The notes under the pieces are model-generated. The model made no database searches. It was not told where the DNA came from and saw nothing but the letters and a program-made list of their open reading frames with translations. Below are positions 17,505 through 20,456 of a stretch of DNA of 64,000 bases, piece by piece. The position numbers and the translations under genes were made by a program. How positions within the stretch are numbered: position 1 is the stretch's first letter; each line of letters begins with the position of its first letter. This stretch comes from Escherichia coli (GTDB lineage: Bacteria > Pseudomonadota > Gammaproteobacteria > Enterobacterales > Enterobacteriaceae): NCBI RefSeq assembly GCF_045037415.1, contig NZ_CP173438.1. One strand, 5' to 3'.

Positions 17505-20456
17505 ATGTCGGGACAGTTTTCAGTCGGCGTTGTTATCGGCGGGATGATTGGCAGCACATTCCGTTCTGCAATGAGCGGTACCCGCCGTGCGCTTGATTCC
17601 CTGAGCGATACCTCACGCCGCCTGCAGGAACGTCAGAACGCTTTAACCCGTGCAACAGAACGTTATGGTCAACTGGGTTCTTCCCGGATGCAGCATCTCA
17701 ACAGCGAGCTGCTGCGGGTAAGCCGCACCATGGAGCAAATTGAGCGCCAGCAGCGCCGTCTGTCAGCGGCATCCGCTACCAGTGATGCGCTGAAAGCTAA
17801 CCGCATGGCGCTGTATGGTCAGGGGATTGAAGCGTATGGCATGGCACAGACTGTTTATCATACGGTTTCCCCTGCCGTTCAGCAGTCCATGTCTTTTCAG
17901 GACAAAATGATTGATATGTCGATCACCGCAAAATATGACAATAAAACGCGGGATGCACTTGCCGGACAGATAAAAGGCTGGGCGCTTAAATACAATCAGT
18001 ATCAGGATGAGCTGCAGGAGGCGATGGGTTCACTCATCAGCGACAATATTGATAATGTGTCAGATATCGGTTTTCTGATGCCGGATATTGCCCGCGCGGC
18101 AACGGCAACACGCACGTCTGCTCAGGACTGGGCAAAAGTGGCCGCAGTCTGGCAAAACTCCCTGAAAGGCGCGGCCAGAGATTTTGGTGCCGTTCAGAAT
18201 ATTATGGCTTATGCCGGTGACCAGGGGTCATTTGAAATCCCGGATCAGGTCAAGTGGATGCAGTCCCTGGCCCCAATGATGGCGGGTATTGCCAGTGGAA
18301 AAGAGGCTGTTGCTGAAATCGGGGCCAGTCTCCAGATAGCAAAAATCGGTGCAGGTTCCACCGACGAAGCAGCCAATAATTTTAAAAACTTTCTTACCAA
18401 AATTTTTGCCCGCGATACTCAGAAACAGTTTGCTGATCTGGGTATTGATTTGCAGGGATCTATTGCGAGTTATAAAGCTGCGGGGATCTCTCCGATTGAA
18501 GGGATGTTGAGTGTTATAGAACGTTACCTCAATGCCAAAAGCCCCGAAGCGCTGGCCGGCTTCAAATCAGCCATGAAAATAAAGAATGATACGGCAAGAG
18601 ATGAGGCACTTCAGGCTCTGGCGAAAAACTTTGGTCTGGGCGATATGTTCGCGGATATGCAGGTCATGGCATTTATCCGCCCGATGCTGGCCAACATGGA
18701 CAGATATCGAGAGATCCGTGCCGGTGCTCTCAGGGCTGCGGATAACGATTTGCTTGCCAGTGCTTATGATCAGCGGCTGAAATCTCCCCTTGAAGCCACT
18801 AAAACACTTATGGTCAGCAGTCGCGATCTGGCAATTACGCTGGGCGATCAATTAGCTCCATCTTTTATTTCTCTGACTCAGGACTTGCTCCCACTCATTC
18901 AGGGGACAAAACACTGGGTGGCGACTCACCCGCAATTTGTCAGTGGGGCTTTTAAGCTCATCAGTGCGCTCCTTGCGATTAAGATAGCGACTGTTGGTCT
19001 CAAACTGGGGCTGAATCTCCTTATTTCCCCCTTTGTGAACGTCTGGAAAACTGCTGTTTTACTCCGGACCAACTGGCATCGACTGACTACCGCACTCGGA
19101 GAAGGTGGCAAATTACGCTGGCTTGTCACTGGATTCAGCCGACTGACCAGCGGAGGACTGAAACTCAGCAAAGTTCTGGCGGGCAGCCTCGTTCGCGGTT
19201 TTATGAGCGCTGCACGTGCCGTTCTCTGGATTGGGCGAGCGCTGATGATGAATCCCATCGGTCTCGTTATCACCGCTGTCGCGGCAGCAGCTTACCTTAT
19301 CTACCGCAACTGGGGGGCAGTCAGTGGCTGGTTTAAACAGCGCTGGGCTGACATTCAGGAAGCCTTTAACGGCGGTATCGCGGGAACTGGTAAGCTGCTG
19401 ATTAACTGGTCGCCGGCAGGCCTGCTCTATAAAGCCTTTGCGGCTGCGCTGAAATATTTCGGCGTTACTCTGCCGGCAAAGTTCACCGACTTCGGTGGCC
19501 ATCTTATCGACGGTTTGATTAACGGTATCAAAAACAAATGGGGGTCGCTCAAATCCAGTGTAACCGGAATGGGTGACAGCATCAGTAGCTGGTTTAAACA
19601 ATGCTGGGCTGACATTCAGGAAGCCTTTAACGGCGGTATCGCGGGAACTGGTAAGCTGCTGATTAACTGGTCGCCGGCAGGTCTGCTCTATAAAGCCTTT
19701 GCAGCTGCGCTGAAATATCTTGGTGTTGATCTGCCGGCAAAGTTTACCGACTTCGGTGGCCATCTTGTCGATGGTCTGATTAACGGTATCAAAAACAAAT
19801 GGGAGTCGCTCAAATCCAGTGTAACCGGAATGGGCGACAGCATCAGTGGCTGGTTCAGCGAAAAGCTGGGCATTCATTCGCCGAGCCGCGTGTTTATGGG
19901 CTTTGGTGACAATATCGCGCAGGGGGCCGCCATTGGCCTGCAGCGGACCACTCCGCTTGCAGCTCTGGCCGGGCAGCGAATGGCCAGTGAACTGCTCCCC
20001 AGAATGCCCGTGAGCATTCAGGGGCCAGAAATACGGGATAACACTTCAGGTGTTCGCTTCAGTATGCCGTTGCCCGATATCAATGGGTTTATGTCGTCTG
20101 CTAAAAATGCGATCGGAGCCGTAATCAATAGTTTGTCTTCCATGCCCGCTATTCCGCTCTCCACCCGGGCATCGATTTTACCAGGGCAACGTCTGGCAAA
20201 TGAGATGACACCGGATGTTCCCCGTATCCCCTCGCCTGAAATCCTGGCTGCCGGATATTCAGGCCGTGGTGCAGCTGCAACCGGCGGTGGAACGTCTGGT
20301 GGTATCCAGGTCAGCTTTAATCCTCAGTTTTTCCTCAATGGCAGGGAAACCACAGCGCCTGCAGGACTGACTGGTGCCCTGAATATGAGTCTGCATGAGC
20401 TGGAAAAAATGCTGGAGCGTCTGCTGGCTCAGAAACAACGTAAGGAGTACCGCTGA
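17505..20456 (+). CDS. tail tape measure protein
   Basis: 983-aa ORF, helix-rich, between chaperone and baseplate genes. Confidence 0.85.
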   Translation: MSGQFSVGVVIGGMIGSTFRSAMSGTRRALDSLSDTSRRLQERQNALTRATERYGQLGSSRMQHLNSELLRVSRTMEQIERQQRRLSAASATSDALKANRMALYGQGIEAYGMAQTVYHTVSPAVQQSMSFQDKMIDMSITAKYDNKTRDALAGQIKGWALKYNQYQDELQEAMGSLISDNIDNVSDIGFLMPDIARAATATRTSAQDWAKVAAVWQNSLKGAARDFGAVQNIMAYAGDQGSFEIPDQVKWMQSLAPMMAGIASGKEAVAEIGASLQIAKIGAGSTDEAANNFKNFLTKIFARDTQKQFADLGIDLQGSIASYKAAGISPIEGMLSVIERYLNAKSPEALAGFKSAMKIKNDTARDEALQALAKNFGLGDMFADMQVMAFIRPMLANMDRYREIRAGALRAADNDLLASAYDQRLKSPLEATKTLMVSSRDLAITLGDQLAPSFISLTQDLLPLIQGTKHWVATHPQFVSGAFKLISALLAIKIATVGLKLGLNLLISPFVNVWKTAVLLRTNWHRLTTALGEGGKLRWLVTGFSRLTSGGLKLSKVLAGSLVRGFMSAARAVLWIGRALMMNPIGLVITAVAAAAYLIYRNWGAVSGWFKQRWADIQEAFNGGIAGTGKLLINWSPAGLLYKAFAAALKYFGVTLPAKFTDFGGHLIDGLINGIKNKWGSLKSSVTGMGDSISSWFKQCWADIQEAFNGGIAGTGKLLINWSPAGLLYKAFAAALKYLGVDLPAKFTDFGGHLVDGLINGIKNKWESLKSSVTGMGDSISGWFSEKLGIHSPSRVFMGFGDNIAQGAAIGLQRTTPLAALAGQRMASELLPRMPVSIQGPEIRDNTSGVRFSMPLPDINGFMSSAKNAIGAVINSLSSMPAIPLSTRASILPGQRLANEMTPDVPRIPSPEILAAGYSGRGAAATGGGTSGGIQVSFNPQFFLNGRETTAPAGLTGALNMSLHELEKMLERLLAQKQRKEYR
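19327..19848 (+). repeat. tandem in-frame duplication (2 x 261 bp, 87 aa) inside tape measure gene
   Basis: Near-identical protein segments WFKQ.WADIQEAFNGGIAGTGKLLINWSPAGLLYKAFAAALKY...GMGDSIS occur twice back to back. Confidence 0.8.

What the first reader, a model, noticed from the sequence alone, without database searches (positions are those of the whole stretch)
19327..19848. In-frame 87-aa tandem duplication in the tape measure protein
Two near-identical 261-bp units sit back to back within the tape measure gene. Because tail length scales with tape-measure length, this should lengthen the tail, and it marks a recent recombination event. It could also be an assembly collapse or expansion.
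Basis: seen in the sequence. Interest (0 to 1): 0.35.

Follow-up and report, generated by a model that had tools for sequence, protein, structure and literature searches.

The report
Copy-variable repeat in prophage tape measure
A Mu-like prophage of E. coli carries a real, in-frame doubled 87-amino-acid block in the protein that sets tail length; related prophages carry one, two or three copies, made by unequal recombination, which is an ordinary way for phage tails to change length.

Summary
Two 261-nt units (19323-19583 and 19584-19844; 94% identical) lie head to tail and in frame inside the 983-aa tape measure gene (17505-20456, +) of a BcepMu-like prophage beside aroA in an ST131-type E. 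coli chromosome.

It is not an assembly artefact. The identical gene occurs in hundreds of complete genomes, and the exact protein is listed in 8848 blocks of the assembly index.

It is not a fresh event either. The units differ at 16 sites (dS 0.17, dN/dS 0.21). First and last units are each orthologous across alleles about 4% apart, and relatives at 84-86% identity have one unit.

Copy number still changes. About 56 of 633 matching E. coli complete genomes have one copy, roughly 430 have two and roughly 130 have three. Junction units show clean single crossovers. Many one-copy calls in draft assemblies look like short-read collapse.

The unit is mostly helical and is a widespread tape-measure module, found in 1-4 copies in distant relatives. 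Each copy should add about 13 nm of tail; this is inferred, not shown.

It is a new example of a known phenomenon, of modest interest.

The parts
17505..20456 (+). Tape measure protein gene (983 aa) of the BcepMu-like prophage
   Evidence: ORF; PF10145 at aa 159-340, TIGR01760, phrog_28 and other PHROG tape measure families; RefSeq annotates it as 'phage tail tape measure protein'
19323..19583 (+). Repeat unit 1 (aa 607-693), in codon register
   Evidence: Compared with other alleles it is itself a mosaic: nt 20-98 carry unit-2-type bases
19584..19844 (+). Repeat unit 2 (aa 694-780)
   Evidence: It is orthologous to the last unit of every 2- and 3-copy allele examined (0-4 nt differences)
19342..19420 (+). 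79-nt tract identical to 19603-19681 in unit 2. It is the longest perfect homology between the units, the probable crossover or conversion tract, and the place where short-read graphs can collapse
   Evidence: The one-copy allele L013 switches from unit 1 to unit 2 within this tract. A run this long has P about 0.04 under random placement of 16 differences
19321..19333 (+). 13-nt boundary motif TCAGTGGCTGGTT (encodes S-G-W-F). It recurs at 19582-19594 with 1 mismatch and at 19843-19855 exactly
   Evidence: Single-copy outgroups have 10-nt (L009) or 11/13-nt (L010) direct repeats at the same two unit boundaries
19843..19855 (+). Third copy of the 13-nt boundary motif, where the array ends and the unique sequence resumes
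19239..19304 (+). Second hydrophobic segment of the tape measure protein (aa 579-600), immediately upstream of the repeat
   Evidence: Kyte-Doolittle scan; conserved NPIGL..TA.A.AAYLIY motif in alignment A2
19869..19895 (+). Conserved GIHSPSRVF motif just downstream of the repeat, at the start of the C-terminal region shared with solved tape measure proteins
   Evidence: Nearly invariant columns in A2; aligns with the 80alpha tape measure protein gp57, residues 997-1091 (6v8i)
17012..17429 (+). Tail assembly chaperone gene (17012-17347) with an overlapping alternative-frame ORF ending at 17429. This is the tape measure protein's assembly partner
   Evidence: PF10109 Phage_TAC_7; phrog_166; frames
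14682..16630 (+). Tail sheath gene (14682-16109) and tail tube gene (16109-16630). The number of their rings is what the ruler would set
   Evidence: Annotation and Pfam families of the identical genes

Best explanation

Proposed history. The module lies between the last hydrophobic segment and the conserved C-terminal GIHSPS region. The founding duplication arose once in the ancestor of this E. coli prophage clade. It probably arose by illegitimate recombination or slippage between the 10-13-nt direct repeats, encoding a recurring S-x-W-F motif, that flank the single unit in relatives. Once two 261-nt copies existed, unequal homologous recombination and gene conversion between them produced an 'accordion' of alleles with 1, 2 or 3 copies and mosaic units.

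Expected effect. Tail tube and sheath polymerise along the TMP until its end is reached. Each extra unit should therefore lengthen the tail by about 87 x 1.5 A, or about 13 nm. That is roughly three tube/sheath rings and about 9-10% of tail length.

Shown here: the repeat is real, is in frame, lies in a TMP gene, has orthologous units under purifying selection, varies in copy number through single-crossover chimeras, is predicted helical, and is built on a widespread module. Inferred: the founding mechanism and the effect on tail length.
For: Reality. The 2952-nt gene is 100% identical in all 30 complete genomes listed, with about 370 at 99% or more. The exact protein is in 8848 index blocks.

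TMP identity and context: the gene order is sheath, tube, chaperone, TMP, gpU, gpX, gpD, baseplate.

Age and selection: 16 nt differences, 9 synonymous and 7 non-synonymous; dS 0.17; dN/dS 0.21. First units cluster with first units (0-8 differences) and last with last (0-4), while first versus last differ by 12-20. Outgroups L009-L011 have a single unit.

Copy-number series: protein lengths of 896, 983 and 1070 aa; genes of 2691, 2952 and 3213 nt in complete genomes.

Unequal crossover: the middle unit of L004 matches its unit 3 up to nt 65 and its unit 1 from nt 73 on, and its outer units are identical to those of the 2-copy allele L008. One-copy L013 equals window unit 1 for nt 1-98 and unit 2 from nt 99. 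Among the 17 listed three-copy proteins the middle units fall into at least two kinds (unit-1-like; unit-2 head plus unit-1 tail), in several sequence variants.

Microhomology at the unit boundaries.

Helicity: an AlphaFold2 model from a 36-sequence alignment has mean pLDDT 79, with the unit as four helices.

The module is widespread and repeatedly duplicated: 573 cluster representatives match. Of the 90 listed ones of at least 700 aa, 60 have one copy, 22 have two, 6 have three and 2 have four, with different periods.

Ruler principle: experimental TMP deletions and duplications change tail length proportionally (PMC5099701; PMC3271669). In T4 the tube polymerises around gp29, which is anchored in the baseplate (PMC8718954).
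Against: No particle measurement exists for any of these alleles, so the tail-length effect is untested.

The AlphaFold2 model has low pTM (0.37), and the unit contains Gly-rich turns and a loop. It might fold back on itself and add less than 13 nm.

In TP901-1 not all TMP residues count towards length (PMC5099701).

Some one-copy alleles may be assembly artefacts rather than biology.

The flanking microhomology in L011 is only TGGTT, so the founding mechanism remains a plausible inference.

I did not test whether the prophage in this window is inducible. Its tail-fibre region is annotated as partly broken in JJ1887.
Confidence: 0.82

Rival explanations
1. Assembly artefact: the second unit in this window is a spurious expansion, or the true copy number differs.
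For: Repeats of this size do disturb assemblies. The phage PhiKM record has a sequencing gap exactly in this part of the gene. The share of the one-copy chimera with identical flanks rises from 1.1% of index blocks with contigs over 1 Mb to 11-13% at 10-200 kb and 54-82% below 10 kb.
Against: The two units differ at 16 positions, so they are distinguishable by reads. The longest identical run is 79 nt. The same 2952-nt sequence is 100% identical in all 30 independently assembled complete genomes listed, about 370 are at 99% or more, and it occurs in 989 index blocks with contigs over 1 Mb. An artefact would not yield two units with a synonymous-biased pattern of differences.
Confidence: 0.02
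2. Neutral junk in a decaying prophage: the duplication and its copy-number changes are unselected slippage in a cryptic element and have no effect on any particle.
For: In JJ1887 the tail-fibre region of the identical prophage is annotated with partial or pseudogene pieces. ZH063's gene carries a frameshift. Copy number varies freely.
Against: dN/dS between the units is 0.21. The reading frame is kept in all 1-, 2- and 3-copy alleles examined except ZH063, which has one 1-nt deletion relative to the same allele in L006. The whole tail module is intact. A phage record, PhiKM from a uropathogenic strain, carries the same genes at 99.3% identity. The 'partial' fibre genes lie in an invertible segment, where such annotation is expected.
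Confidence: 0.1
3. The extra unit changes something other than length. For example, it could alter the TMP's role in crossing the periplasm or inner membrane or in baseplate anchoring, since it lies next to the hydrophobic segments and the baseplate-anchored C-terminus. The unit could fold back so that the tail barely changes.
For: The repeat lies directly after a hydrophobic segment and before the C-terminal region homologous to the part of the 80alpha TMP solved in a tail/baseplate complex. The model shows four helices with turns rather than one long helix, and pTM is 0.37.
Against: Where it has been tested, deletions in both repeat and hydrophobic regions of a TMP shortened tails in proportion (PMC5099701). 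Distant relatives tolerate 1-4 copies with different periods, which fits a spacer better than a precise functional domain.
Confidence: 0.12

Closest known systems
Engineered and natural tape-measure length variants (lambda gpH, Katsura 1987; TP901-1 TMP, PMC5099701; T4 gp29, Abuladze 1994, cited in PMC8718954)
   Same: An in-frame internal duplication or deletion in the TMP, which is expected to change tail length in proportion to the residues added. The TMP is helical, has hydrophobic segments and has a conserved C-terminus.
   Different: Those are laboratory constructs or single phages. Here a natural 1/2/3-copy series segregates among near-identical prophages of one bacterial species, in a contractile P2-type tail, and no particle has been measured.
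Short periodic TMP units (11-aa or 11-11-18-aa Trp/Phe repeats; Belcaid et al. 2011, PMC3271669; Siponen et al.)
   Same: The idea of 'units on the tape' whose duplication and loss retrace TMP evolution. The head of the unit (NWGAVSGWFKQRW) has Trp residues 11 apart.
   Different: The unit here is 87 aa, not 11 aa. Neither published search pattern occurs in this protein and no chain of three or more F/W at 11-residue spacing was found. Period-11 and period-18 self-similarity within the unit is not positive.
TMPs of P2-like Burkholderia and Ralstonia phages (phiE202, phi52237, phiE12-2, phiX216, phiE094)
   Same: They carry the same module followed by GIHSPS at about 55% identity, in the same position of a P2-type tail gene cluster.
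   Different: They have a single copy of the module (one place per record).
Escherichia phage PhiKM (PQ738613, Bcepmuvirus)
   Same: It has the same TMP gene at 99.3% identity and the same neighbouring genes.
   Different: Its record is broken by a sequencing gap inside the repeat, so its copy number is unresolved.

Membership tests
Phage tail tape measure protein (PF10145 / TIGR01760) | Matches the family profile above the curated cut-off | tested here: met
   PF10145 scores 74.6 bits against 33.2. TIGR01760 scores 59.9 against 28.8. phrog_28 has E = 1e-135.
Phage tail tape measure protein (PF10145 / TIGR01760) | Position in the tail module: after the sheath, tube and chaperone genes and before the gpU, gpX and gpD genes and the baseplate genes | tested here: met
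   Annotation of the identical JJ1887 region and Pfam families of the neighbouring genes
Phage tail tape measure protein (PF10145 / TIGR01760) | Long, predominantly alpha-helical protein with hydrophobic segments | tested here: met
   983 aa. Hydrophobic windows lie at about aa 478-508 and 579-600. The AlphaFold2 model of aa 547-763 of the single-copy form is almost all helix, with pLDDT 79. The rest of the protein was not modelled with an alignment.
Phage tail tape measure protein (PF10145 / TIGR01760) | Protein length determines tail length | not testable with these tools
   Needs electron microscopy of particles from alleles with 1, 2 and 3 units
11-aa / 11-11-18-aa aromatic periodic TMP repeats (Belcaid 2011) | Seven F/W markers spaced 11 apart (pattern 1) or in an 11-11-18 spacing (pattern 2) | tested here: not met
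   Neither pattern occurs, and there is no chain of three or more F/W at period 11. This repeat is not filed under that class.
Copy-number variants made by unequal homologous recombination between tandem units | Junction units are chimeras with a single switch between parental unit types, and the outer units are unchanged | tested here: met
   L004 unit 2 differs from unit 1 only at nt 65 or below and from unit 3 only at nt 73 or above, and its outer units equal those of L008. L013's single unit equals window unit 1 for nt 1-98 and unit 2 from nt 99.
Copy-number variants made by unequal homologous recombination between tandem units | Both reciprocal products (n+1 and n-1 copies) are found in the population | tested here: met
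   1-, 2- and 3-copy alleles occur in complete genomes. An unknown share of the one-copy calls in drafts may be collapse artefacts.

The most novel reading that the evidence does not exclude
The 87-aa module could be a dedicated 'length-adjusting cassette' of a large TMP family. Its flanking S-x-W-F microhomology would make it duplication-prone. The natural 1/2/3-copy series in E. coli prophages, including within ST131 and in strains carrying two such prophages with different copy numbers, would then reflect selection for different tail lengths. A possible driver is matching to the depth of capsule or O-antigen on different hosts, rather than neutral recombination noise.
Probability: 0.12. Interest if true: 0.55.

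Novelty: new member of a known kind. Interest (0 to 1): 0.3.

Why it matters
It offers a ready-made natural test of the ruler model in a contractile P2-type tail. Near-isogenic prophages with 896-, 983- and 1070-aa tape measures exist in sequenced strains, so tail length per unit could be measured directly.

It is also a practical warning. The 261-nt repeat collapses or breaks in short-read assemblies of a very common ST131 prophage, so one-copy 'alleles' in draft genomes should not be taken at face value.

Beyond that, it documents how a tape measure evolves: one old duplication seeded by microhomology, followed by repeated unequal crossovers and conversion. It does not change how tape measures are understood.

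Tried and rejected
1. Mosaic boundary at the start of the repeat. In one search many genomes matched only from query position 404 onwards. I first read this as a different TMP sharing only the C-terminal module, and read 'places_in_record = 2' as a second prophage. Fetching the loci showed they are three-copy alleles (3213-nt genes). The extra places are mostly off-diagonal repeat hits. I rejected the idea. A few genomes, such as CD306, really do carry two such prophages.

2. Counting three-copy genomes exactly from the '80% coverage' summary. This failed because the tool joined pieces for two-copy genomes. I used two evenly spaced samples of 60 records instead. The same trick did give an exact count for one-copy genomes.

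3. Single-sequence AlphaFold2 of aa 548-869. Mean pLDDT was 40, which is unusable. I replaced it with an alignment-based model. I ran no fold search, because pTM is 0.37 and an extended helical protein gives no meaningful fold match.

4. Sub-repeats inside the unit at periods 11, 18, 29, 40 and 43-44. There is no positive self-similarity. Weaker copies of the unit elsewhere in the protein scored no better than shuffled sequences.

5. The published 11-aa and 11-11-18 patterns are absent.

6. Literature searches for this prophage or polymorphism found nothing specific. PhiKM has no paper in the library.

7. A whole-protein search of solved structures gave no hit. Only the profile of the unit region did.
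Full report

Yes. Tandem Repeats Finder reports a single array at 19321-19855 with period 261, 2.0 copies, 93% matches and no indels. 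The repeat finder gives copies at 19321-19581 and 19582-19842 at 94% identity. A 31-nt piece of the unit occurs exactly twice in the window, against none expected from shuffles.

The array is internal to ORF 17505-20456 (+, 983 aa). Since 261 = 3 x 87, it is in frame. In codon register, unit 1 is aa 607-693 (19323-19583) and unit 2 is aa 694-780 (19584-19844). A 13-nt motif, TCAGTGGCTGGTT (S-G-W-F), marks the start of unit 1. It recurs at the start of unit 2 with one mismatch and exactly at the point where unique sequence resumes.

**2. What is the gene and where is it?**

The protein matches PF10145 (74.6 bits, cut-off 33.2), TIGR01760 (59.9 bits, cut-off 28.8) and many PHROG 'tail length tape measure' families.

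Window 1-29369 is base-for-base identical to E. coli JJ1887, an ST131 strain. In that genome the gene is annotated as a tape measure protein (TMP). It lies in the order sheath, tube, small ORF, tail assembly chaperone, TMP, gpU-like, gpX, gpD, baseplate V/W/J/I, tail fibres. This module belongs to a transposable prophage (DDE transposase, DUF935 and Mu-type head genes) inserted next to aroA-serC. The closest phage record is Escherichia phage PhiKM, classified as a Bcepmuvirus, at 99.3% identity.

So this is the ruler of a contractile, P2-type tail on a Mu-like phage.

**3. Artefact?**

No, not in this window. The 2952-nt gene is 100% identical in all 30 independently assembled complete E. coli genomes listed, and about 370 records are at 99% identity or more. 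The exact 983-aa protein is listed in 8848 blocks of the assembly index, 989 of them with contigs over 1 Mb. The units differ at 16 sites and the longest identical run is 79 nt, so most read sets can resolve them.

- The PhiKM record has a sequencing gap exactly here.
- A one-copy protein with flanks identical to this allele (P0103) is listed in 545 index blocks.
- Relative to the two-copy protein, P0103 makes up 1.1% of blocks with contigs over 1 Mb, 4.4% at 0.2-1 Mb, 11-13% at 10-200 kb and 54-82% below 10 kb.
- Its single unit switches from unit 1 to unit 2 inside the 79-nt identical tract. That is what either a real crossover or a de Bruijn-graph collapse would give.
- The dependence on contig length suggests that many of these calls are collapses.
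- Among complete genomes only three carry this form.

**4. How old is the duplication?**

It is not recent. The units differ at 16 nt: 9 synonymous and 7 non-synonymous changes, dS 0.17, dN 0.036, dN/dS 0.21.

I compared ten alleles at the DNA level:

- First units cluster with first units (0-8 differences).
- Last units cluster with last units (0-4 differences).
- First and last units differ by 12-20.
- This holds although the alleles differ by about 4% in the 5' 1.8 kb of the gene.
- E. coli relatives whose unit region matches at 84-86% identity (L009-L011) have a single unit, about equally distant from both (27-41 differences).

The simplest reading is one founding duplication in the ancestor of this prophage clade, with both copies then kept under purifying selection.

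**5. Copy number is still changing.**

Protein database hits fall into length classes of 896, 983 and 1070 aa, in steps of exactly 87. Complete genomes contain genes of 2691, 2952 and 3213 nt.

Of 633 matching records in the 5426-genome collection:

- 56 have one copy. Three have the ST131 allele, 13 are at about 96.6% identity, and the rest are among the distant single-copy types.
- Two evenly spaced samples of 60 records give 42 and 41 two-copy records and 12 and 13 three-copy records. That scales to roughly 430 two-copy and 130 three-copy genomes.
- No four-copy allele appeared in the samples.

ST131 is heavily over-represented in the collection, so these are counts of genomes, not of events.

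The junction units give the mechanism:

- In L004 the middle unit differs from unit 1 only at nt 65 or below and from unit 3 only at nt 73 or above. Its outer units are identical to the two units of the two-copy allele L008. This is a textbook unequal crossover.
- In the ZH063-type allele (L003, L006) units 1 and 2 differ at only 4 sites, so this is a separate, recent duplication of the first unit.
- Among the 17 listed three-copy proteins the middle units are of at least two kinds: unit-1-like throughout, or a unit-2 head joined to a unit-1 tail. Each kind occurs in several sequence variants.
- The one-copy alleles of the close family are chimeras of a unit-1 head and a unit-2 tail, so they are secondary contractions and not ancestral forms.
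- The window's own unit 1 is a mosaic. It lacks the unit-1-type bases at nt 27, 54, 57, 59 and 73 that other alleles have, which produces the 79-nt identical tract (P about 0.04 by chance). Of all units compared it is closest to the chimeric middle unit of L004. This allele has therefore already been through conversion, or through an expansion followed by a contraction.

**6. Origin (inferred).**

In single-copy relatives the unit is bracketed by short direct repeats: GCTGGTTTAA, 10 of 10 nt, in L009 and 11 of 13 nt in L010. In L011 only TGGTT is shared. These repeats encode the recurring S-x-W-F(K) motif found at the head of the unit and just before KLGIHSPS. Slippage or illegitimate recombination between them, 261 nt apart, would give exactly the observed register.

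**7. What is the unit?**

It lies directly after the second hydrophobic segment (aa 579-600) and before the conserved GIHSPSRVF motif.

An AlphaFold2 model of the single-copy region, built on a 36-sequence alignment of distant homologues, has mean pLDDT 79. It shows the unit as four helices with only a few non-helical residues, including one short loop at GVDLPAKF. pTM is 0.37, so the packing of the helices is not defined. A single-sequence model was unusable.

A profile of the region matches TMP chains in solved tail structures: 9m8o Gp14, the 80alpha TMP gp57 (6v8i), 8kea and 9d93. The listed entries hold three chains per entry, or six over two entries. The last third of the unit plus the GIHSPS region aligns to the C-terminal residues 997-1091 of the 80alpha TMP.

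The unit is a widespread module. It matches 573 representatives of 50%-identity clusters (320 at E of 1e-10 or lower). Among the 90 listed representatives of at least 700 aa, 60 carry one copy, 22 two, 6 three and 2 four. The periods differ; 76 aa is the commonest, and 42-45, 87 and 113 aa also occur. In 4 of 19 multi-copy proteins the copies are closer to each other than to any other protein's unit. In the rest they are old. Duplication of this part of the tape has therefore happened many times and at different ages. Isolated P2-like Burkholderia and Ralstonia phages carry one copy.

The repeat does not belong to the published 11-aa or 11-11-18 Trp/Phe class (PMC3271669).

**8. How it most likely works.**

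From established knowledge, tube (and then sheath) subunits polymerise around the baseplate-anchored TMP until its end is reached (PMC8718954). Engineered deletions and duplications change tail length in proportion to the residues removed or added. In TP901-1, for example, a 29% change in residues gave a 30% change in length, with graded shortening across deletion mutants (PMC5099701). The lambda and T4 experiments of Katsura 1987 and Abuladze 1994 are cited in those papers.

For a helical unit, 87 residues at 1.5 A each come to about 13 nm. From my own knowledge, ring rises in contractile tails are about 4 nm, so this is roughly three rings, or 9-10% of a tail set by 896-1070 residues. This step is inferred and nothing here measures a particle.

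The rivals are a neutral polymorphism in a cryptic prophage, and a unit that folds back or acts in envelope penetration rather than length. Neither is excluded. They are disfavoured by dN/dS of 0.21, by the preserved frame in all alleles (ZH063's single 1-nt deletion aside), and by the tolerance of 1-4 copies with varying periods in relatives.

**9. Novelty and verdict.**

Internal TMP duplications, 'units on the tape' and length scaling are well known. My literature searches found no description of this 87-aa module or of its 1/2/3-copy polymorphism in E. coli Mu-like prophages.

I rate it a new member of a known kind, with interest of about 0.3. Its value is as a natural allelic series for testing the ruler in a contractile tail, and as an assembly caveat for a very common ST131 prophage.

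Noticed in passing
window 25351-28853: The tail-fibre region looks like a Mu G-segment or multiple-inversion system. A 229-nt inverted repeat at 26168-26396 pairs with 27989-28217 (94%) and with 27550-27778 (85%). Opposite-strand fibre and fibre-assembly genes lie between them. A Gin/Hin-type serine invertase gene at 28281-28853 starts MLIGYIRVSTNDQ. RefSeq's 'partial' fibre genes in JJ1887 probably reflect the current orientation of this switch rather than decay.
   Followed up: partly
window 17012-17429: The tail assembly chaperone gene (17012-17347, PF10109) is overlapped by an ORF ending at 17429 that encodes ...EMWLEQAEEQIKSEYGDKS. Related loci annotate the equivalent as 'GpE family phage tail protein'. 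It lies in the +1 frame relative to the chaperone, not the -1 frame used by P2 E/E+E'. A run CCGGGGGAG lies just before the chaperone's stop codon. The frameshift site and direction were not worked out.
   Followed up: partly
L003 (E. coli ZH063, NZ_CP014522) 6943-10154: This three-copy TMP gene is annotated as a pseudogene ('missing C-terminus'). It has a 1-nt deletion in the 3' part relative to the otherwise identical allele in L006, which could be a sequencing error in this assembly or a real inactivation.
   Followed up: no
E. coli CD306 (NZ_CP013831), hits H31 and H198: One chromosome holds two related Mu-like prophages. One has the exact two-copy TMP gene (1085621-1088572). The other has a three-copy allele (545641-546823). 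This gives scope for exchange between prophages.
   Followed up: no
P0006 (1084 aa) and P0053 (995 aa): Other length variants of the same TMP exist. P0006 repeats a 101-aa stretch covering the second hydrophobic segment and the head of unit 1, starting at REGGKLRWLVTG.... P0053 has a 12-aa duplication (GDSISSWFKQCW) at the unit junction. Each is seen on a single contig, so they may be assembly errors or rare events.
   Followed up: no
window 17505-19322 versus 19845-20456, compared with L004, L005, L007 and L008: The gene is mosaic. The 5' 1.8 kb differs by about 3.8% from these alleles (68-70 mismatches), while the 3' 612 nt differs by only 0.2-1.5% (1-9 mismatches). This implies recombination between prophage alleles with a breakpoint near the repeat.
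   Followed up: partly
window 29370 onwards: The window is identical to JJ1887 up to 29369, within the aroA region. An indel then shifts the simple co-linear comparison, so the window comes from a different, closely related chromosome.
   Followed up: no
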